Shown here: one piece after another, positions 42,568-51,966 of the stretch | Position numbering within the stretch: the stretch's first letter is position 1 | Layout: each line of letters starts with the position of its first letter | Assembly: GCA_964514585.1 (NCBI GenBank) | Contig: CAZETU010000002.1 | Span: 1 to 64,000, forward strand | Length of the DNA stretch: 64,000 nt | From: Candidatus Woesearchaeota archaeon | GTDB lineage: Archaea; Nanobdellota; Nanobdellia; Pacearchaeales; GW2011-AR1 | Direction of reading: 5' to 3' | Made by a program: the position numbers and the translations under genes | The notes under the pieces: model-generated | What the model saw: only the letters and a program-made list of their open reading frames with translations | Databases searched by the model: none | What the model was told of the DNA's origin: nothing

Positions 42568-43044
42568 ATGAAATTTGAGTATATTTTGGTATACCTGATT
42601 GGTTTTCTTAGTTGCACGTTTTTATTTTATGGGTTTGCTTATTCTGGCACGGAAGTTCCTTTTGCTACTGGGCTTGTTAGTTTTAATGGCGAGGCGCCTT
42701 CGGACTGGATTAGCGAGGACGATATTATTTTATTTGAAGATATGATTATTCTGAATATTGATAATGCTAGTATTTCGAGTTATGCGCCGACTGGGAGTAT
42801 GAAGCCGGTTTTAGATAAGGGTGCTAATGGGATTCGTGTTGTTCCTTCAAGTGAGGATGAAGTCGAGATTGGTGATATTGTTAGTTTTAGATTTAGTGGG
42901 AAATTGGTTATTCATCGTGTTGTTGAGAAGGGAGTTGATGAGGAGGGAGTTTATTTTGTGACGCAAGGGGATAACAATGTTTTGAGTGACGGTAAGATTC
43001 GGTTTGAGGATATCAAGTACGTTACTGTTGGTATACTTTATTAA
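42568..43044 (+). CDS. Signal peptidase I (S26 family)
   Basis: TGSMKPVL, GDIVSF, VIHRVV, TQGDNN. Confidence 0.85.
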   Translation: MKFEYILVYLIGFLSCTFLFYGFAYSGTEVPFATGLVSFNGEAPSDWISEDDIILFEDMIILNIDNASISSYAPTGSMKPVLDKGANGIRVVPSSEDEVEIGDIVSFRFSGKLVIHRVVEKGVDEEGVYFVTQGDNNVLSDGKIRFEDIKYVTVGILY

Positions 43045-44003
43045 ATTCTTAAAATTAATTTTGCGAGTATCATTCCTAAGAAAATTCCTGTTGAGATGTA
43101 TGGCATTGCTGGATATGCTTTTCCTTTTTTTGTTACTGTGAATAAGAAGATTAGTCCTGCTAATGCTCCGAATGTTACAAATAGTGCTGGGATTAATCCA
43201 AATGCTCTCATGAAAACTCCTGCCGTTATTATTGGGAAAATTACGTCGCCTCCTCCAAGGATTGCTAGATTGACTTTGAATTTTTGTTTCTTTATTTTGC
43301 TTGGAATTTTTTTGTTCTTGTATTTCGTTTTAATCTTTTGTATCTTATCTTTTACTTTTTTTGATGTTGATGGGATTAGAAATCCGCCGAATACTTTTAT
43401 TTCTTCCATTTGAAATTTTGCCATTTGTTGCATGATGCCGGATTTCCAGACTGCCCACATGTCGTAGAGCGAGATTAGGATTAGTAATATGATTGCTGAT
43501 AGTGGGGTTAAAATTGGGACGAAGACGGCCGCGATTCCTGGGTAGATTAGAAGTTCAGTTCCGTTGTGGACTATGACGTTTGGTCTGAATATTTTTAGGA
43601 GGGAAAGTGGAATTGCAATTACTAGTGCGATTATCGAAGCGTTTAGTATTGTTGTGTATCCTAGGATTGCGTTTATTGAGATTCCTAGAGCTAGGGCTAC
43701 GACGAAGAAAAACCATAGTCGGATTACGAGCTTCCATTTGTATTTCATTAGAAGGAAAATTACTGCGAAGGCTAGTACGAATGCGAAGATTATTGATAGG
43801 AAATTTGGAGTTGGTTCGTTTTGTGGTGTTTGGAGCCCGAATGGTAATCCGCCGTCTGTTATGATTGTTTCGATTTCTCCTGTTTGTGGGTTGATTATTG
43901 TTGTTTCTTGTGGGGTGTAGGCGTTAACTACGAAGAGTCCGATGAACTGTGTTATGAGGAACATTCCTATTAGAATTAGTGTGATAGATACTTTGTGTTT
44001 CAT
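43041..44003 (-). CDS. Presenilin-family intramembrane aspartyl protease (PSH)
   Basis: SLYDMWAVW (YD), LGGGDVIFP (GxGD), YPAMPY (PAL-like). Confidence 0.9.
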   Translation of the reverse strand: MKHKVSITLILIGMFLITQFIGLFVVNAYTPQETTIINPQTGEIETIITDGGLPFGLQTPQNEPTPNFLSIIFAFVLAFAVIFLLMKYKWKLVIRLWFFFVVALALGISINAILGYTTILNASIIALVIAIPLSLLKIFRPNVIVHNGTELLIYPGIAAVFVPILTPLSAIILLILISLYDMWAVWKSGIMQQMAKFQMEEIKVFGGFLIPSTSKKVKDKIQKIKTKYKNKKIPSKIKKQKFKVNLAILGGGDVIFPIITAGVFMRAFGLIPALFVTFGALAGLIFLFTVTKKGKAYPAMPYISTGIFLGMILAKLILRI

Positions 44004-44083
44004 CCTCTTGTTGTGTTAGGCTTTGTCGGTATATAAATGTTCTTCGTGGAAAAATTTATTAATTGTCGATTATTGATAGTTTT

Positions 44084-44509
44084 ATGAAAGCTTTACTTTT
44101 TCATGCTGAGGAGTATGGGGTTAATTTTCATAGTCTTTCGAATAGGCCTAAGGGAATTTTTCATGAGAAGGTTGATGGGAAAGAGAAGCAGTTTTGTAAG
44201 GATTGCGTTGTGGCGTTTGTGACGGTTGAGAAAGGGGATAATTTTGATAGGACTTCTACGGGTGTGGCTAAAGAGATTAAGAAGATGTGTGATGAGGTTC
44301 GACATGAGAGCGCTGTTATTGTTCCGTTCGCGCATTTGTCGAATAAGCTTTGTGAGCCGAAGAGGGGTTTTGAGATTTTGGAAGAGATTGAGAAGAAATT
44401 AAAGAAAATGAAAGTTGATGTTTTGAGGACGCATTTTGGTTCGAATAAATCTTTGCATTTGGATATTTATGGGCACGCTGGGAATGCTAGGTATCGGGAA
44501 TTTTATTGA
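44084..44509 (+). CDS. Stand-alone archaeal threonyl-tRNA synthetase editing domain
   Basis: MKALLFHAE, AFVTVEKGD, VPFAHLSNKL, HFG..K...GH. Confidence 0.85.
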   Translation: MKALLFHAEEYGVNFHSLSNRPKGIFHEKVDGKEKQFCKDCVVAFVTVEKGDNFDRTSTGVAKEIKKMCDEVRHESAVIVPFAHLSNKLCEPKRGFEILEEIEKKLKKMKVDVLRTHFGSNKSLHLDIYGHAGNARYREFY

Positions 44510-45036
44510 TGGGGTTTGATCTTGAGAAACATAATGCTTTGACTAAGGATGATAAGTCGCATGAGCAAAAATGGGATGAGAAGATTAAGGGGCTTTGTGA
44601 TAAGATAAATTCTAGTGAAGATTATTTTACGACGTCGTCTTGTTCGGGTCGGGTTACTGTGGTTCGGGCTTCAGTTGAGAAGGTTAAAGATGCTTTTGTG
44701 TTTAAGTCGCATGACAAGGCTTGTGTTTCGGACGTTGAGGGGATTTTAGATGATGGACTTTATTTTCGTCAGGAGCCTTGTGCTTTGCATGTTGCTTGTC
44801 GAACTTTGGAAGATGCTCAGAAATTTTTGAATCTGGCTCGGAATTTGGGATGGAAGAAGTCTGGGATTATTTCGTCTGGGAAACGGTTTGTTATTGAGTT
44901 GTTTTCGACTGAGATGATTGTTGTGCCGTTGATGAAAAATATGGATAGAGAATTTTTGGAGTTGGTTGTTAGGGATGCTAATTTGAAATTGGAAAGGACT
45001 TGGGGGAAGATTTTGAGGTTGGAGGAGGAGGCTTGA
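44509..45036 (+). CDS. taw3: tRNA-wybutosine synthesizing protein 3 (Taw3/TYW3)
   Basis: WDEKIKGLCDKINSSEDYFTTSSCSGR, LHVACRTLEDA, ARNLGWKKSG; TGATG overlap with preceding gene. Confidence 0.9.
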   Translation: MGFDLEKHNALTKDDKSHEQKWDEKIKGLCDKINSSEDYFTTSSCSGRVTVVRASVEKVKDAFVFKSHDKACVSDVEGILDDGLYFRQEPCALHVACRTLEDAQKFLNLARNLGWKKSGIISSGKRFVIELFSTEMIVVPLMKNMDREFLELVVRDANLKLERTWGKILRLEEEA

Positions 45037-45095
45037 TTATGGTTGACTTAGATCATTTAAGGAATTTTTAAATAATATATTTACTTTTACTTTTT

Positions 45096-45434
45096 ATGAT
45101 GTTTGATAATAATGATGTGCCAGAAATTCGTGAGGTGCGGATTAAGCAATCGCAGGGACTTTTGAGTTATTTGTCTGAGGAGTTTGGTGATGGGATTGAT
45201 AGAGTTGCGGAAAGAACTGGTGTTGGGCATGATACTTTGAATAGTGTTGATAAAGGGCTGGGGCCTTTGGCAATAGGACAAATGAAAGATATCGCTGAAG
45301 CCTATGGTTTTAGTTTTAGTGAATTATTGGCACTTTCTTTTGATCATGATTTTCCTGATGCGGATAGAAATGATCCTATCTATAAGGGTCTTATGGGGGT
45401 TTTGTTTCATCCGGTGCACTATGGTTGTGATTAA
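45096..45434 (+). CDS. XRE-like HTH protein (orphan insert)
   Basis: IDRVAERTGVGHDTLNSVDKG...QMKDIAEAYGFSFSELL matches the XRE HTH pattern. Confidence 0.55.
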   Translation: MMFDNNDVPEIREVRIKQSQGLLSYLSEEFGDGIDRVAERTGVGHDTLNSVDKGLGPLAIGQMKDIAEAYGFSFSELLALSFDHDFPDADRNDPIYKGLMGVLFHPVHYGCD

Positions 45435-45436
45435 GT

Positions 45437-45480
45437 TTATCTCAACCTAATTGTTTCTAGGTTTTTTGGGACGATTGTCT
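45437..45480 (-). repeat. Duplicated 3' end of aCPSF1 (copy of 46177-46220)
   Basis: 41/44 identical; encodes TIVPKNLETIRLR* with three synonymous changes. Confidence 0.9.
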
Positions 45481-45482
45481 GA

Positions 45483-45530
45483 GAGGCTAATTTGAAATTG
45501 GAGAGGATTCGGAGGAAGGTTTTGAGGTTG
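45483..45530 (+). repeat. Diverged duplicate of taw3 3' end (copy of ~44974-45021)
   Basis: EANLKLERIRRKVLRL vs DANLKLERTWGKILRL; shared GCTAATTTGAAATTGGA and TTTTGAGGTTGG. Confidence 0.8.
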
Positions 45531-45651
45531 GGGAGTCGATTTAGAGAAAGATTGGAAGTTTGAGTTTTGGATGCTACTGTTGTTTTATTAAAGTAACTTA
45601 ATAGTGGTAACTAATCGAAAAGTTTATAAATAGATATTTGTATTTTATATT

Positions 45652-46122
45652 ATGACAAATCAAAGTAAAGTTAATGATCCAAGGATGTGGATGAAATGGA
45701 AAAATTCTGGGGCGGTTGGGACTATCGAAGATGCAATTTTAACAGTGATGCAAAGAGACAGGGTGCAAAGATTTGAACGTGTTAATGAGCGTGAAAACTC
45801 AGATATGCATTCTTCTGACTATGTTCATTATGTTTTTCAAATTGAAAGTGTTCCAGGGGTTGGGCGAGTAGTTTTTAGACAAGGTGGTACAGCAGCGACT
45901 TATTCTTCAGAAGAAGGACCATATTGTGAAAAATTTACTTCTGCAGATGCAAATGTTGCCGGAATTGCAATCCCAAAAACACGAAAAGTAAATTATGATG
46001 GAAATGGGTTTATTCCTATTTCATTGTTTGATGAAAGAAAAGATGCGGGGTTGATTGAAAAAGTGCAAGCATTTCTAAAAAAAGAAAAAGGTGTTACTGG
46101 AACGATTGCGTTTCAGACTTAA
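45652..46122 (+). CDS. Hypothetical protein (orphan insert)
   Basis: 156-aa ORF, A-rich codon usage, own GAAAAGTTTATAAA promoter. Confidence 0.6.
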   Translation: MTNQSKVNDPRMWMKWKNSGAVGTIEDAILTVMQRDRVQRFERVNERENSDMHSSDYVHYVFQIESVPGVGRVVFRQGGTAATYSSEEGPYCEKFTSADANVAGIAIPKTRKVNYDGNGFIPISLFDERKDAGLIEKVQAFLKKEKGVTGTIAFQT

Positions 46123-46176
46123 TGATTTGATATTTGAATCGGGAACACCAATGGACTATATGTAATAAATGCTGAT

Positions 46177-48066
46177 TTACCTTAACCTGATTGTTTCTAG
46201 GTTTTTTGGGACGATTGTCTCGATTCTTTGGGATTTGTAGATGCTTGAGGCTAAGTCTAGGGCTCGGGATTGTTCGCCGTGGTTTATGATTACTTTTCGT
46301 GGTTTTGGGTTGATGTGACTGATGAATGCCATTAGTTCGTTTCGTGAGGAATGGCCTGAGAATCCGTCGATTGAAAGGAATTGCATTTTGATTGGGACTG
46401 TTTCATCTTTACCGTTTACGTTGAATGTTGCTTCTTTTATTCCTTGTTGGAGTTGTCGGCCTAGTCCTCCTGGTGGTTGGTAACATGATAGACATAGTCC
46501 GTTGTTTGCGTTTGGGGCGAATTCTCTTAGGTATTCGACTGAAGCTCCGCCGACAAGCATACCTGATGTTGCTAGGATTATGCAGGGGCCGCCTTCGATT
46601 ATTTGTTTTCGTTCGTGAGGTGAGCCGACTTGTGTAAAGATTTCTGATGTGAATGGATTTTTGTCTGCGAATATTGAGGATCTTAGGGAGTTTGATAGGA
46701 AATCGGGGTATGCAGTGTGGACTGCGTTGATATGCCAAATCATCCCGTCTATGTAGATTGGAACTTTTGGGACTTTTCCATTTCGCATTGCGTCTTCAAG
46801 AAGTAGCATTTTTTCTTGGGCGTGACCTGTTCCTAATTCTGGAAGTAGAACTTTTCCGCCTTCGCCTATTATTTTATTTACGAAGTCGAGTAATTCTTGT
46901 TCTGATTCTTTTCGTGGTGGGTAGTTGTTGTCTTTGCCGCCGTATGTTGATTCCATTTGTAGAGTTTCTAGTCTTGGGAAGTATGTTGTTGCGCCTTCAA
47001 GGGATCTTGATTTGCCGAATTTGATGTCGCCTGAGTAGATGTAGTTGTGGAGACCGTTTCCGATGTTGAAGTGAATCATTGCTGAGCCTAGAGTGTGACC
47101 TGCGTTGTATAGCGTGATTCTGATGTCTGGGGTGATGTCGGTTACTTCGGTGTAGTTTAGGGTGATTGAGTGTTTGACCATGTTTCGGACGTCTGAGGAT
47201 TTGAAGAGTGGGGCTGCTGCTTGTTTGTATGCGACGCCGATGAAGTCTAGTGCCATTAGTGCTGAGATGTCTCGTGTTGGGGCTGTCATGTATACTGGGC
47301 CTTTGTACCCCATTTTGTATAGGTATGGGATTAGTCCTGAATGGTCTAAGTGGGCGTGGGATAATATTACGGCGTCTAGAGTTGAGATGTCTAATTCTGG
47401 GGCTTCTAGGTATGGGTATTTGTCTTTGCCTTGACTTGAGACGTCTACCCCACAATCGATTAGGACTTTTGAAATTGGAGTTTGCAATAAGAAACAACTA
47501 CGACCGACTTGTCTGCCGCCACCTAGGGCCGTGATTCTGACCCATTCTTCGATTTTGTCTGGGTTCCATTCTTTGTAGATTTTTTCGCCGATGTTGTTTA
47601 AGAATTTTTTTCGGTATGAGTTGTCTTGGTATAGAACTTCTCGGATTTTGTCTGTGATTTTGGATTTTATTGCTGGGGAACGTTGGACTTGTGGGGTCCA
47701 CATTGTTGCCGTTTTGATTTCTCTTAGAAGCGAGCCGGCTTTTCCGATTGCTAGGCCTGGTCTTTTTGCCTCTATGATTACTGTGCTTCTTTGTGGGTCG
47801 AAAATTATTTGTGTTAGTTCTGCTTCAGATGGAACTATTTCTTGGATTTTTCTCTCGGTTTCTTCCTGTGGCATTAGGAGGGATTTGTCTGATCTTAGTT
47901 CGATTCGTTTTTTGATTATGTTTACGACTTCTTTTATTGCTGAATCGCCGTTTTTGAAGAATGCTGTATCTGAAGTGTAGACTACAATGTTTGCGCCTTC
48001 GAAGATTGTCGAGCTGACGACACCTCGCGGTAGCTGGTCTTCAATTGTTTTTAAGATATCTGCCAT
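46177..48066 (-). CDS. fttA: aCPSF1/FttA beta-CASP ribonuclease (KH-MBL-beta-CASP)
   Basis: N-terminal KH region, GGGRQVGRSC, HAHLDHSG, ESTYGG, GFSGHS, INHGE. Confidence 0.95.
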   Translation of the reverse strand: MADILKTIEDQLPRGVVSSTIFEGANIVVYTSDTAFFKNGDSAIKEVVNIIKKRIELRSDKSLLMPQEETERKIQEIVPSEAELTQIIFDPQRSTVIIEAKRPGLAIGKAGSLLREIKTATMWTPQVQRSPAIKSKITDKIREVLYQDNSYRKKFLNNIGEKIYKEWNPDKIEEWVRITALGGGRQVGRSCFLLQTPISKVLIDCGVDVSSQGKDKYPYLEAPELDISTLDAVILSHAHLDHSGLIPYLYKMGYKGPVYMTAPTRDISALMALDFIGVAYKQAAAPLFKSSDVRNMVKHSITLNYTEVTDITPDIRITLYNAGHTLGSAMIHFNIGNGLHNYIYSGDIKFGKSRSLEGATTYFPRLETLQMESTYGGKDNNYPPRKESEQELLDFVNKIIGEGGKVLLPELGTGHAQEKMLLLEDAMRNGKVPKVPIYIDGMIWHINAVHTAYPDFLSNSLRSSIFADKNPFTSEIFTQVGSPHERKQIIEGGPCIILATSGMLVGGASVEYLREFAPNANNGLCLSCYQPPGGLGRQLQQGIKEATFNVNGKDETVPIKMQFLSIDGFSGHSSRNELMAFISHINPKPRKVIINHGEQSRALDLASSIYKSQRIETIVPKNLETIRLR

Positions 48067-50071: not shown

Positions 50072-50428
50072 ATGGCTTTTAATAAATTTAAAGATAAATC
50101 GAAGAAGAATAAGGCGAAGGTTTATGTGCCTGGGCAAGAGGGGCCGGTTAGGGTTAAGTTGCCGCAGGGTCGTGAGGTGATTGGAATTATTGCTCAGAGA
50201 TGTGGCGGGAGTCGGATGCAGGTTTCTTGTATGGATGGGAAGACGCGGAATTGTAGAGTTCCTGGTAGGAAGAGACGAGGGCTTTGGCTTCGAGAGGGTG
50301 ATGCTATAATTATTGAGCCTTGGGAATTTGACGACGATAAGGGTGATGTTTTGTTTAAGTATACTGATAATCAGGTTCGGAAGTTGAAGGAGATGGGGAA
50401 GTTAAGTACGGATGAATCGGAATTTTGA
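50072..50428 (+). CDS. eif1a: Translation initiation factor 1A (aIF-1A)
   Basis: VSCMDGKTRNCRVPGRKRRGLWLREGD...PWE. Confidence 0.95.
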   Translation: MAFNKFKDKSKKNKAKVYVPGQEGPVRVKLPQGREVIGIIAQRCGGSRMQVSCMDGKTRNCRVPGRKRRGLWLREGDAIIIEPWEFDDDKGDVLFKYTDNQVRKLKEMGKLSTDESEF

Positions 50429-50525: not shown

Positions 50526-50569
50526 GGCTTGAGGGTTAGGATTATAAAGTTATTTTTGTTTGTTATGTT

Positions 50570-50689
50570 ATGAGAAATGTATTAGTTCAAAATATTCGAA
50601 AGATTAAGAAGGCTGTGCCTGCGATTGAGAATAAGGTTAAGGTTGGTTTTTTGAAGGACGGGGTTAGTAATTTAGAAAGAAGTCGTTGA
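50570..50689 (+). pseudogene. Duplicated 5' fragment of the KH-domain (Dim2/KRR1) gene
   Basis: 50570-50668 matches 51436-51540 except two synonymous changes and a 6-bp in-frame deletion; runs into a stop at 50689. Confidence 0.9.
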
Positions 50690-50717
50690 TTTAGTAATAG
50701 GAATAGGTTTGTTATCT

Positions 50718-51329
50718 TTAATATTCAAGATAGTCCATCACTTTTTTCTGGTCTGTTTTGCCCTTGGAGATTATGGTTGGGTTATCAGTTCTTAGTTTTA
50801 TGTCCCGGGCCAATGTCATTTTTACACGATGACCTGGTGCCGAGTCAAAAATTATTCCTTCACGAGTGGATTTTAAATCAATTTTATATGCCCCAGCATT
50901 TAAAATATATAATTCGTAATTTGCTATTTCTCTTCTTTTTGTGCCTACTTGTATTATATCATCTCCAGCATGTACTGATAGTTTATCATTGTGATGGTAT
51001 GCTATATGCATCCTCGGCCACCCTGTTGTAATTACTACGGTGTTTTTCCCATTTCCTCTAAAAAGGTCAACTTCAACGTCTCCTTTTATTCCAGAGCTAG
51101 AATTTCTTATCATTCTTGGAAGTCGACTTTCTGCTTTTTCAAATTGTCTTTCACTTCCAGCATGTATTGCTTCTTTTTGATATTTTGTACATGCTAGACA
51201 AGCTTCAATAAGATGTTGTCTTTCAAAAGGATAGGGTTCATTTCTTTCGACTATTTTGATTATTGGGTGATTTCCAATAGCACGATACAAGTCTTCAAGG
51301 GGTTCGAATATTCTTAGTGGATTAATCAT
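50718..51329 (-). CDS. Hypothetical protein (orphan insert)
   Basis: 203-aa ORF with own GAAAAACTTTATAAA promoter, between the two KH 5' copies. Confidence 0.65.
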   Translation of the reverse strand: MINPLRIFEPLEDLYRAIGNHPIIKIVERNEPYPFERQHLIEACLACTKYQKEAIHAGSERQFEKAESRLPRMIRNSSSGIKGDVEVDLFRGNGKNTVVITTGWPRMHIAYHHNDKLSVHAGDDIIQVGTKRREIANYELYILNAGAYKIDLKSTREGIIFDSAPGHRVKMTLARDIKLRTDNPTIISKGKTDQKKVMDYLEY

Positions 51330-51435
51330 TAATTATTCTTGGGTAGTTTATTTATAAAGTTTTCTATTTGTTATTATTTAAAAGTTACAAAATGTTTTTA
51401 ATTAAAATTATAAACTTGTTTTGTTATATTTTATT

Positions 51436-51966
51436 ATGAGAAATGTATTAGTTCAAAATATTAGAAAGATTAAGAAGGCTGTGCCTGCGATTGAGAATAA
51501 GGTTAAGGTTAAGGTTGGTTTTTTGAAGGATGGGGTTAGTGTTAAGGGGAGTGAGTTGAATGAGTATTTGGTTGAGCAGGTTTTGCGGGCGGTTGATTTT
51601 GGGTTTTATGTTGATGATGCGTTGTTGTTGACGGATGATGGTTTTGTTTTGGAGTTTATTGAGGTTAAGGAGCATACTCATCGGAAGAATTTGAAGGATG
51701 TTCGGGCTAGACTTATTGGGACGAGTGGGAAGGCTAGGAAGACGATTGAGAATTTGACGGGGTCGGTGATCGTGATTCATGATAATACCGTGGGGGTTAT
51801 AGTTGACAGTATTCATTTGGACGCGGTTGTTCAGGCTATTGAGAGTTTGATTCAGGGGGCGAAGCATGGGAATGTTTTTGCTTATTTGGAGAAACAGAAT
51901 GTTTCTAGAAGGAAATTTGACGAGGATGATTTGGGTTTGAAAGAAGGGGTTGTGAAGAACAGTTAG
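51436..51966 (+). CDS. KH-domain pre-rRNA processing protein Dim2/Pno1/KRR1
   Basis: RAVDFGF, VRARLIGTSGKARKTIENLTG, LIQGAKHGNVFAYLE. Confidence 0.9.
   Translation: MRNVLVQNIRKIKKAVPAIENKVKVKVGFLKDGVSVKGSELNEYLVEQVLRAVDFGFYVDDALLLTDDGFVLEFIEVKEHTHRKNLKDVRARLIGTSGKARKTIENLTGSVIVIHDNTVGVIVDSIHLDAVVQAIESLIQGAKHGNVFAYLEKQNVSRRKFDEDDLGLKEGVVKNS

What the first reader, a model, noticed from the sequence alone, without database searches (positions are those of the whole stretch)
44970..46220. Tandem gene cassettes bounded by duplicated ends of flanking core genes (taw3 | XRE gene | CPSF-end + taw3-end | orphan | aCPSF1)
Seen: the 44-bp 3' end of aCPSF1 (46177-46220) recurs at 45437-45480 with 3 differences, all synonymous (ATC/ATT, TTA/TTG, AGG/AGA). 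It is directly followed by a diverged copy of the taw3 3' end (45483-45530). The layout is [taw3 end-geneA-CPSF end][taw3 end-geneB-CPSF end]. Inference: the convergent taw3/aCPSF1 gap is a variable slot, and a second allele of the slot from a sister strain, carrying a different cargo gene plus short flanking homology, was added in tandem. Synonymous-only divergence argues for a functional donor allele rather than a decaying self-duplicate. No integrase or IS is nearby, so this may be an integrase-independent way of stacking orphan genes.
Basis: partly seen in the sequence, partly recalled or inferred. Interest (0 to 1): 0.75.

Follow-up and report, generated by a model that had tools for sequence, protein, structure and literature searches.

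The report
Two gene cassettes stacked by recombination
In a tiny (Pacearchaeota, DPANN) archaeon, two unrelated small genes sit side by side, each framed by the same two neighbouring gene ends, which is the scar of a second version of this variable site being added next to the first by recombination without any integrase; the same scar occurs at a second site in the genome.

Summary
A 45-nt copy of the aCPSF1 3' end (45436-45480, 3 differences, all synonymous) is fused to a ~46-nt copy of the taw3 3' end (45486-45531). The layout is [taw3 end-geneA-CPSF end][taw3 end-geneB-CPSF end]. Genes A and B are unrelated, and each has its own TATA box.

- The genus-wide variable slot lies between aCPSF1 and a presenilin-type protease gene. 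Its gap ranges from 33 bp to 1.1 kb and holds unrelated orphans.
- taw3 was found in only 4 of 49 genus genomes, so it is itself cargo.
- The taw3-end copy is decayed: 4 of 5 changes are non-synonymous, a conserved Trp is lost, and there is a 1-nt indel. At this locus alone the "silent-only" argument is weak.

New evidence:
- The same double-junction architecture occurs between rpoN and 5S rRNA on contig C1.
- A single-bracket case lies at the KH gene (50541-51540).
- Both double junctions sit on microhomology (TTGT; GACAC).
- Pooled, the gene-end copies differ from their residents mostly silently (21:9).
- No integrase or transposase was found on the 204-kb contig.

Best reading (0.55): additive stacking of a second slot allele, by short-homology crossover plus a microhomology joint. 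No donor or single-cassette allele could be fetched. This scan has noted simpler gene-end-duplication scars in many other CPR/DPANN genomes and in this one.

The parts
43041..44003 (-). Presenilin/SPP-type membrane protease gene. In most species of the genus it lies directly downstream of aCPSF1, so it is the true left border of the variable slot.
   Evidence: Pfam PF06550, E 1e-16. Synteny in about 20 relatives, with gaps of 33 bp to 1.1 kb.
44063..44509 (+). Free-standing ThrRS editing-domain gene. It is part of the 2.17-kb content of the slot in this genome.
   Evidence: Pfam PF08915, E 4e-25. The full-length ThrRS is on contig C6.
44506..45036 (+). taw3 (TYW3 methyltransferase). It is accessory in this genus, and its last ~60 nt are the resident 'X end'.
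   Evidence: Pfam PF02676, E 9e-34. Found in 4 of 49 genus genomes, at other loci in the three others.
44977..45022 (+). Resident taw3 3'-end repeat (X end).
   Evidence: the repeat finder family D1 and BLAST.
45065..45079 (+). A+T-rich TATA-like box, about 17-31 nt upstream of the gene A ATG.
   Evidence: Read from the sequence. Inference from archaeal promoter geometry.
45096..45434 (+). Gene A, 112 aa. A true orphan, all-helical, with only a sub-threshold HTH_3 hit. The label 'XRE gene' is weakly supported.
   Evidence: Pfam E 0.07. No homologue besides itself. AF2 pLDDT 48. Composition typical of the local strand.
45436..45480 (+). Copy of the aCPSF1 3' end (Y-end copy), 42/45 identical. 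All 3 differences are synonymous and lie in the 14 nt nearest the stop. The inner 31 nt are identical and include a T6 tract on the + strand.
45481..45485 (.). Junction bases (GAGAG). The crossover lies on TTGT, which is shared by the aCPSF1 end and by taw3 just upstream of its repeat.
   Evidence: (family D1 extends to 44953/45462).
45486..45531 (+). Copy of the taw3 3' end (X-end copy), 41/46 identical. It is preceded by an in-frame TGA, has 4 non-synonymous changes including the conserved Trp, and then a 1-nt indel. It is a decayed fragment.
45623..45632 (+). TATA box (TTTATAAATA), 29 nt upstream of the gene B ATG.
   Evidence: Read from the sequence. Inference.
45652..46122 (+). Gene B, 156 aa, function unknown. 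It has 41-45% homologues in three DPANN protein clusters. Its AT skew is an outlier for this strand, which suggests a recent arrival.
   Evidence: only 0.24% of 450-nt windows have an AT skew as high.
46176..46220 (+). Resident aCPSF1 3'-end repeat (Y end).
46177..48066 (-). aCPSF1/FttA gene (KH + beta-lactamase + beta-CASP). A conserved core gene and the right border of the slot.
   Evidence: Pfam. 74-88% identical across the genus.
50541..51540 (.). Second scar in the same window. The promoter plus first ~33 codons of the KH-domain gene are duplicated (50541-50668 versus 51407-51540) around a 203-aa orphan on the - strand (50718-51329). The copies differ by 2 synonymous changes and one in-frame 6-nt indel in the coding part.

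Best explanation
The locus is a real recombination scar. Two alternative contents ('alleles') of one variable intergenic slot have been stacked in tandem instead of one replacing the other.

Most likely, DNA from a close relative carried taw3-end, gene B and aCPSF1-end. It was joined head-to-tail at a few bases of microhomology, either as a small (~740-bp) circle or as an unequal illegitimate crossover between two non-identical chromosomes. It entered the resident taw3-geneA-aCPSF1 locus through a homologous crossover in the short aCPSF1 (or taw3) end.

The result keeps both flanking genes intact, adds one promoter-bearing gene, and leaves the fused [aCPSF1 end | taw3 end] fragment between the cassettes. 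No dedicated recombinase is needed; RadA-type homologous recombination plus microhomology-mediated joining suffices.

Shown: the architecture, its recurrence, the microhomology, the absence of integrase, and the variability of the slot. Inferred: the foreign donor, the circular or unequal-crossover intermediate, and the order of arrival (gene B later).
For: 1. Both repeats are real and unique in the genome. The cassettes between them are unrelated. Simple tandem duplication of one cassette is therefore excluded.

2. The inner junction joins aCPSF1 44 nt from its end to taw3 about 55 nt from its end, on a shared TTGT.

3. An independent locus on contig C1 has the same architecture: rpoN | HAD-like gene | [5S-end copy][rpoN-end copy] | 121/142-aa orphan | 5S rRNA. 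The two copies overlap on GACAC, and both residents carry ACAGACAC.

4. Both slots vary across the genus. The aCPSF1/SPP gap is 33 bp to 1.1 kb and holds unrelated orphans. The rpoN/5S gap is about 25 bp to 4.5 kb.

5. The rpoN-end copy is closer to the rpoN alleles of other species (3/39 differences to G053 and G005) than to the resident (6/39). Five of its 6 differences are synonymous.

6. Pooled over five gene-end copies, there are 21 synonymous and 9 non-synonymous differences. A decaying self-copy is expected to give 39-44% synonymous; binomial P is 0.0006-0.004.

7. Gene B has an AT skew matched by only 0.24% of local windows, while gene A is typical.

8. There is no integrase or transposase on contig C2. 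RadA is present and Ku is absent.

9. Genes A and B both occur on a 448,048-bp contig of another assembly. Their exact proteins are recorded on 12 and 10 contigs respectively, and only A has a Logan record.
Against: - No donor and no single-cassette (A-only or B-only) allele was seen. Close strains exist in the databases (taw3 variants P0026 and P0147), but their DNA could not be fetched.
- At this locus the taw3-end copy looks like neutral decay (1 synonymous: 4 non-synonymous, lost Trp, indel). Locus-specific evidence for a functional donor allele therefore rests on three silent changes in 44 nt (P about 0.06).
- The 5S-end copy at the second locus carries six transitions, several at positions invariant in the 20 relatives compared, and matches no sampled 5S rRNA better than about 90%.
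- End duplicates were not found in the same two slots of 5 and 20 relatives.
- Reads were not available, so the junction is not verified physically.
Confidence: 0.55

Rival explanations
1. Self-duplication first. A short segment spanning taw3 end, spacer and aCPSF1 end (or a whole one-gene cassette) was duplicated in tandem within this lineage by slippage at microhomology. Genes A and B were later inserted into, or swapped into, the two resulting spacers independently.
For: Microhomology at both double junctions is typical of spontaneous tandem duplications. The aCPSF1-end copy is far closer to the resident (41/44) than to the end of any other species. The taw3-end and 5S-end copies look like neutral decay. 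The slots demonstrably acquire unrelated genes without leaving duplicates in relatives.
Against: It needs three events at each of two loci. It predicts about 40% synonymous differences, whereas 21 of 30 are observed. The rpoN-end copy is nearer to alleles of other species than to the resident. No empty duplicated-spacer intermediate was seen in 20-40 relatives.
Confidence: 0.2
2. Assembly or amplification artefact. Two co-occurring strains carry different cassettes, and the assembler, scaffolder or a chimeric (for example MDA) molecule put both branches in series. This would be analogous to haplotypic false duplications in eukaryote assemblies (PMC9516828).
For: The genome is a MAG of 18 contigs. 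A 55-nt terminal overlap on contig C12 suggests a k=55 de Bruijn assembly. Strain variants of taw3 exist in public data. Several such scars occur in this one assembly but not at the same slots of relatives.
Against: A de Bruijn path needs k-mers that span the junction. The copies share only 31, 17, 12 and at most 11 identical bases next to the joints, not k-1, and they differ by substitutions. There are no Ns and no alternative-allele contigs in the bin. Local inverted repeats, the usual MDA chimera type, are nearly absent: 6 against 154 direct. Genes A and B, and the KH-locus orphan, are all recorded on a 448-kb contig of a different assembly.
Confidence: 0.1
3. Site-specific integration. A small integrase-less element is mobilised in trans by one of the genome's tyrosine recombinases. 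It uses the aCPSF1 3' end as its att site and carries a replacement gene end.
For: Direct repeats of a gene's 3' end flanking an insert are the classic attL/attR picture. The genome encodes six tyrosine recombinases elsewhere.
Against: Precise att recombination would duplicate only the aCPSF1 end. It does not explain the taw3-end (or rpoN-end) fragment fused to it. The two loci share no common core sequence. The junction DNA has no hairpin or inverted-repeat structure (z about 0). There is no integrase on the contig.
Confidence: 0.07

Closest known systems
Campbell-type insertion-duplication (single crossover between a circular DNA carrying a homology segment and the chromosome; the 'pop-in' state of pop-in/pop-out genetics)
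   Same: Direct repeats of the homologous segment flank the inserted DNA. The host gene stays intact. No site-specific recombinase is needed. The repeats allow later pop-out of either cassette.
   Different: The homology here is only about 45-50 nt. The inferred circle would be a natural ~0.55-0.75-kb piece of a relative's chromosome, closed at microhomology, so it carries the ends of both flanking genes. No circle has been observed.
Homology-facilitated illegitimate recombination in transformable bacteria (Acinetobacter, S. pneumoniae, P. stutzeri; refs 41, 42 and 47 as cited in PMC5361080)
   Same: One legitimate crossover in conserved sequence is combined with one illegitimate joint at a few bases of microhomology, which adds non-homologous DNA.
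   Different: It was described experimentally in bacteria, usually with deletion of recipient DNA. Here the illegitimate joint lies inside the anchor gene end, so it gives a duplication and stacking. The organism is an uncultured archaeon whose DNA uptake route is unknown.
Displaced 'orphan' module arrays at T6SS effector-immunity, Rhs and CDI loci (Kirchberger et al. 2017, PMC5361080)
   Same: New modules are added at a conserved border while the old module is kept downstream, which builds arrays without an integrase. Gene fragments are left between modules.
   Different: Those arrays grow at one conserved 5' border of a polymorphic toxin gene and carry functionally linked immunity genes. Here the units are unrelated orphan genes between two convergent housekeeping genes, and the relic is a fusion of both gene ends.
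Integron cassette arrays
   Same: Single-gene units of 0.5-0.9 kb are stacked at one site.
   Different: There is no IntI, attI or attC. The junctions have no hairpin potential. Each cassette has its own promoter. The borders are copies of host gene ends.
Replacement and additive flexible genomic islands of aquatic prokaryotes (PMC4033161)
   Same: A fixed chromosomal position between conserved genes holds different genes in different strains, exchanged by homologous recombination in the flanks.
   Different: Here both alternatives are retained in tandem with a visible chimeric joint, on the scale of a single gene.

Membership tests
Campbell-type insertion-duplication | Direct repeats of a chromosomal segment flank the inserted DNA, one copy continuous with the intact gene | tested here: met
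   45436-45480 and 46176-46220 flank the gene B unit; 44977-45022 and 45486-45531 flank the gene A unit.
Campbell-type insertion-duplication | Circular (or recircularised) donor molecule | not testable with these tools
   Inferred only from the head-to-tail fusion of the two gene ends. No reads or circles are available.
Homology-facilitated illegitimate recombination | Illegitimate joint at 3-10 nt of microhomology | tested here: met
   TTGT at the window junction; GACAC (ACAGACAC in both residents) at the C1 junction.
Homology-facilitated illegitimate recombination | Donor DNA from a different genome | tested here: inconclusive
   The rpoN-end copy is nearer to other species' alleles (3 vs 6 of 39), and the pooled count is 21 synonymous: 9 non-synonymous. 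At this locus the count is 4:4, and no donor was found.
Integron cassette array | attC-type imperfect inverted repeat (hairpin) at cassette borders and an IntI integrase with attI | tested here: not met
   Junction folds have z-scores of +0.09 to -0.5. No PF00589 match on contig C2.
Integrase-mediated integrative element at a gene 3' end | Integrase gene in or next to the element, and att repeats limited to the target gene end | tested here: not met
   No integrase on the 204-kb contig. The repeat junction also contains the other flanking gene's end.
Simple tandem duplication | The two units are homologous throughout | tested here: not met
   Only the ends align, and genes A and B are unrelated. 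The same holds at the C1 locus: HAD-like gene versus orphan.
Assembly false duplication (bubble put in series) | Identical k-1 overlaps at unit borders, gaps or Ns, and alternative-allele contigs | tested here: not met
   Identity runs next to the joints are 31, 17, 12 and at most 11 nt, with substitutions. There are no Ns and no other copy in the bin. Read-level proof is not available.
XRE/HTH_3 regulators (gene A) | Pfam HTH_3 match above the gathering threshold | tested here: not met
   E 0.07, 13.6 bits against a cut-off of 23. The AF2 model is helical but low-confidence.

The most novel reading that the evidence does not exclude
Pacearchaeota populations may exchange 'slot alleles' as small (0.5-0.9 kb) one-gene DNA units. 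Each unit would carry roughly 45-50-nt relics of both flanking housekeeping genes, fused head-to-tail. The relics would act as portable homology arms, letting the unit integrate additively, and pop out again, by host recombination alone. That would be an integrase-free functional analogue of integron cassettes, and could be a main route of orphan-gene gain in ultra-small archaea.
Probability: 0.15. Interest if true: 0.8.

Novelty: new variant of a known kind. Interest (0 to 1): 0.5.

Why it matters
How DPANN and CPR organisms, with about 1-Mb genomes and few mobile-element genes, keep acquiring strain-specific orphan genes is poorly understood.

A junction that fuses the ends of both flanking genes is more informative than the usual single gene-end duplication. 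It shows that the incoming unit was exactly the content of the homologous slot of a relative, plus about 50 nt of each neighbour. It shows that the joint used microhomology. It also shows that the outcome was additive rather than a replacement.

Two independent examples in one genome make this a testable model. Population reads should show segregating A-only, B-only and A+B alleles. Short-arm circles should integrate in a RadA-dependent way in tractable archaea.

The scar is also a caution for annotation, because the relic fragments mimic gene ends. It is a caution for MAG quality control too, because it resembles a haplotype false duplication.

Tried and rejected
- The single metagenome scan with taw3 gave only relatives at 47% identity or less.
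- No taw3 lies within 1.5 kb of aCPSF1 in about 20 relatives. This led to redefining the slot.
- I looked for end duplicates in the aCPSF1 slot of 5 relatives and the rpoN/5S slot of 20 relatives and found none.
- Genus searches with the two C1 cargo genes found no orthologues.
- PHROGs and Pfam gave nothing for the cargo genes. There are no relatives of gene A or B on viral contigs.
- AF2 models of genes A and B were too poor (pLDDT 48 and 46) for fold searches.
- I searched 300 genomes of the order for a donor of the C1 junction. There was no match above about 92% for the rpoN part or 90% for the 5S part.
- I searched for a taw3 allele with the copy's C-terminal tail and found none among 172 homologues or the three members of the 90% cluster.
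- The tRNA-Thr pair on C2 (158163/158933) was set aside as a separate kind of case. The second copy is a whole decayed tRNA-like gene.
- The HFIR primary papers were not held. They are cited through PMC5361080.
Full report
**Observation.**
- The repeat finder reports 45436-45480 versus 46176-46220 (45 nt, 93%). It also reports 44953-45022 versus 45462-45531 (70 nt, 80%), whose well-aligned core is 44977-45022 versus 45486-45531.
- Against the whole 1.04-Mb genome these are the only extra copies, with E values of 1e-12 and 2e-8.
- The right-hand repeat is the last 14 codons plus stop of aCPSF1/FttA (46177-48066, - strand; KH, metallo-beta-lactamase and beta-CASP domains).
- The left-hand repeat is the 3' end of a TYW3-family gene (44506-45036).
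- The three aCPSF1-end differences are synonymous.
- The inner element is a head-to-tail fusion. The aCPSF1 fragment is cut 44 nt from the stop exactly where the taw3 fragment begins, about 55 nt before its stop. Five bases of uncertain origin lie between them.
- Between the repeats, gene A (112 aa) and gene B (156 aa) share no DNA or protein similarity.
- Each gene has an A+T-rich TATA-like box about 20-30 nt upstream of its ATG.

**Surroundings and relatives.** The organism is a Pacearchaeota-type DPANN archaeon (source names). The genome is 1.04 Mb in 18 contigs.
- In about 20 species of the genus, aCPSF1 is followed on the same strand by a presenilin/SPP-type protease gene (43041-44003 here; PF06550). 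The gap is as small as 33-70 bp.
- In other species the gap is 0.5-1.1 kb and holds unrelated orphan genes. These include a 231-aa ORF in G024, 242- and 80-aa ORFs in G007, and a 223-aa ORF in G004.
- The genus-wide variable slot is therefore aCPSF1 | SPP. In this genome it holds 2.17 kb: a free-standing ThrRS editing domain, taw3, gene A and gene B.
- taw3 was found in only 4 of 49 genomes of the genus and sits at unrelated loci in the three others. It is accessory, not core.
- A donor of a taw3-end...aCPSF1-end unit must therefore have been a close relative sharing this lineage-specific arrangement. This fits the aCPSF1-end copy being much closer to the resident (41/44) than to any other species' end.
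- None of five relatives with enlarged gaps shows end duplicates.

**Recurrence in the same genome.** A self-comparison of the genome lists several short direct repeats that bracket single small ORFs.
- The most telling is on contig C1 (L040). Its order is rpoN (C1 125023-125220, +), a HAD-like gene (125241-125690, +; Pfam), a copy of the 5S rRNA 3' end (125682-125732) overlapping a copy of the rpoN 3' end (125728-125774), an orphan (125773-126201, -), and the 5S rRNA gene (126343-126454, -; Rfam 74 bits).
- This is the same [X end-gene-Y end][X end-gene-Y end] architecture, with different genes and different flanks.
- The two inner copies overlap on GACAC, and both resident genes carry ACAGACAC at the corresponding point.
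- In the window, the crossover falls on TTGT within a longer imperfect match, about 17 of 24.
- The rpoN/5S gap is also variable across the genus, from about 25 bp in several species to 0.4-1.4 kb in many and about 4.5 kb in one.
- No end duplicates occur in that slot in 20 relatives.
- Within the window, the promoter and first ~33 codons of the KH-domain gene are duplicated around a 203-aa orphan (50541-50668 and 51407-51540). In the coding part the copies differ by two silent changes and one in-frame 6-nt indel.
- Further bracket cases exist on C4: 701-774/1238-1311, and 49608-49668/50277-50331 around a NUDIX gene next to a dUTPase end.

**Self-copy or foreign allele?** The differences, counted codon by codon:

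| Gene-end copy | Synonymous | Non-synonymous |
|---|---|---|
| aCPSF1 end | 3 | 0 |
| taw3 end | 1 | 4 |
| rpoN end | 5 | 1 |
| KH start | 2 | 0 |
| C4 ORF end | 10 | 4 |

- The taw3-end copy also has a 1-nt indel and has lost a Trp conserved in 7 of the 8 full-length homologues aligned, with Phe in the eighth.
- Random mutation of these sequences would be 22-30% synonymous. A decaying copy compared with a selected resident should then give about 39-44%. The pooled 21 of 30 gives P of 0.0006-0.004.
- The rpoN-end copy differs from the resident at 6 of 39 positions, but from the alleles of G053 and G005 at only 3.
- These results favour copies that diverged while part of working genes in another lineage.
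- At the locus of the finding the count is only 4:4. The taw3 fragment is clearly decayed, and none of the close taw3 variants in the databases (P0026, P0146, P0147) carries its tail.
- The 5S-end copy carries six transitions, several at positions invariant in the 20 relatives compared.
- A foreign donor is therefore supported genome-wide but not proven here.
- Composition adds a hint about order. Contig C2 has a strong strand bias on the + strand (GC skew +0.33, AT skew -0.20). Gene A fits it. Gene B's AT skew (+0.10) is matched by only 0.24% of local windows. Gene B is probably the later arrival.

**Mechanism.**
- Simple tandem duplication is excluded because the units are unrelated.
- Site-specific integration does not explain the second gene end fused at the joint. 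It has no support from hairpins (z about 0) or from nearby recombinases. PF00589, PF01609 and PF07282 have no match on contig C2, and the six tyrosine recombinases lie on other contigs.
- The genome has RadA and a paralogue but no Ku. This fits homologous recombination plus microhomology-mediated joining.
- The most economical path takes a piece of a relative's slot, running from about 50 nt inside X to about 45 nt inside Y. It is closed on itself at microhomology and crosses over once with the resident Y (or X) end. An equivalent path is an unequal illegitimate crossover between two different chromosomes, resolved by a homologous one.
- Both paths give the observed structure. Both predict that either cassette can later pop out through the short repeats.
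- This is the logic of Campbell-type insertion-duplication and of homology-facilitated illegitimate recombination. Its outcome resembles the orphan-module arrays at T6SS, Rhs and CDI loci (PMC5361080).
- A plausible by-product: the aCPSF1-end copy places a T6 tract on the + strand just after gene A, which could act as a terminator. This is inference only.

**Artefact check.**
- Stacking of two strain haplotypes by an assembler is the main technical rival (compare PMC9516828).
- Against it, the runs of identity adjoining the joints are 31, 17, 12 and at most 11 nt, with substitutions beyond them. They are not k-1 overlaps for the k=55 suggested by contig C12.
- There are no Ns, and no alternative-allele contig exists in the bin.
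- Local inverted repeats, the common MDA chimera type, are nearly absent: 6 against 154 direct.
- Genes A and B and the KH-locus orphan are all recorded on a 448,048-bp contig of another assembly.
- Read-level confirmation was not possible.

**Cargo.**
- Gene A has no homologue other than itself and only a sub-threshold HTH_3 hit, so 'XRE gene' is not established.
- Gene B has homologues at 41-45% identity in three DPANN protein clusters.
- Gene B shares a ~25-aa N-terminal motif (MxNQSK.NDPR.W.KW..SGAV) with otherwise unrelated small proteins in several DPANN MAGs, and with a paralogue at C2:80058.
- Neither gene has viral relatives.
- The structure models were poor. The function of both genes remains unknown.

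**Verdict.** The interpretation of additive stacking of slot alleles without an integrase is the best-supported reading (about 0.55). It needs corrections to the definition of the slot and to the strength of the synonymous-change argument.

The process belongs to known kinds (insertion-duplication, HFIR, displaced module arrays). The double-end junction, seen twice in an archaeal genome, is a new and mechanistically informative variant.

This scan has recorded many simpler gene-end-duplication scars in CPR/DPANN genomes, including this one. I treated those notes as leads only.

Noticed in passing
G000 contig C1 125182-126385 (L040 1683-2886): A second double-junction locus: rpoN | HAD-like gene | [5S rRNA 3'-end copy][rpoN 3'-end copy] | orphan | 5S rRNA. 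The joint lies on GACAC. The rpoN/5S gap ranges from about 25 bp to 4.5 kb across the genus.
   Followed up: yes
window 50541-51540: The promoter plus first ~33 codons of the KH-domain gene are duplicated around a 203-aa orphan on the - strand. In the coding part the copies differ only by two silent changes and an in-frame 6-nt indel. The orphan's GC skew is an outlier (z = -2.2).
   Followed up: partly
window 45652-45723 and G000 C2:80058-80129 (L002 1502-1837); L070-L074: Gene B shares a ~25-aa N-terminal motif (M-V/T-NQSK-x-NDPR-F/M-W-x-KW-x-x-SGAV) with small proteins that have unrelated bodies. These include one paralogue in this genome and proteins in several Pacearchaeota/Nanoarchaeota MAGs. 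Its role is unknown.
   Followed up: partly
whole contig C2 (window 1-64000 and beyond): There is a very strong strand composition bias along 200 kb. On the + strand, GC skew is about +0.33 and AT skew about -0.20, for genes of either orientation. The opposite sign is seen on C1 100-150 kb.
   Followed up: partly
L040 2746-2842 (C1 126245-126341), with further copies at C1 107938, 202943, 210748, 271233 and 318869: A ~50-95-nt sequence next to the 5S rRNA 3' end recurs at five other places on C1, and many times in relative G047. In G047 the rpoN/5S slot holds a ~1-kb segment bounded by 27- and 44-nt inverted repeats (L055 271-434 / 1219-1350). It is possibly a MITE-like element.
   Followed up: no
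window 44063-44509: A free-standing ThrRS editing domain (PF08915) is encoded just upstream of taw3 and overlaps its start. The full-length ThrRS, with its own editing domain, is on contig C6.
   Followed up: partly
G000 C4 701-774 / 1238-1311 and C4 49608-49668 / 50277-50331: Two more gene-end duplications bracket single genes. The last 24 codons of a 72-aa ORF are repeated after a 159-aa orphan, with 10 silent and 4 replacement differences. The dUTPase gene end is repeated on the far side of a NUDIX gene.
   Followed up: partly
G000 C2 158163-158220 / 158933-158990 (L041): tRNA-Thr(CGT) and a decayed second tRNA-like copy (Rfam 40.8 bits, not called by ARAGORN) bracket a 216-aa ORF with no Pfam match.
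   Followed up: partly
G000 C12 (4,491 bp), C13 and C11: Contig C12 has a perfect 55-nt terminal overlap, which suggests a small circular element and a k=55 assembly. C13 and C11 consist largely of ~216-nt tandem repeats at about 90% identity.
   Followed up: no
G000 C1 104345-104384 / 104682-104721 and C2 200646-200676 / 201162-201192: Perfect 40-nt and 31-nt direct repeats bracket single small ORFs (75 and 141 aa). Their nature was not resolved.
   Followed up: no
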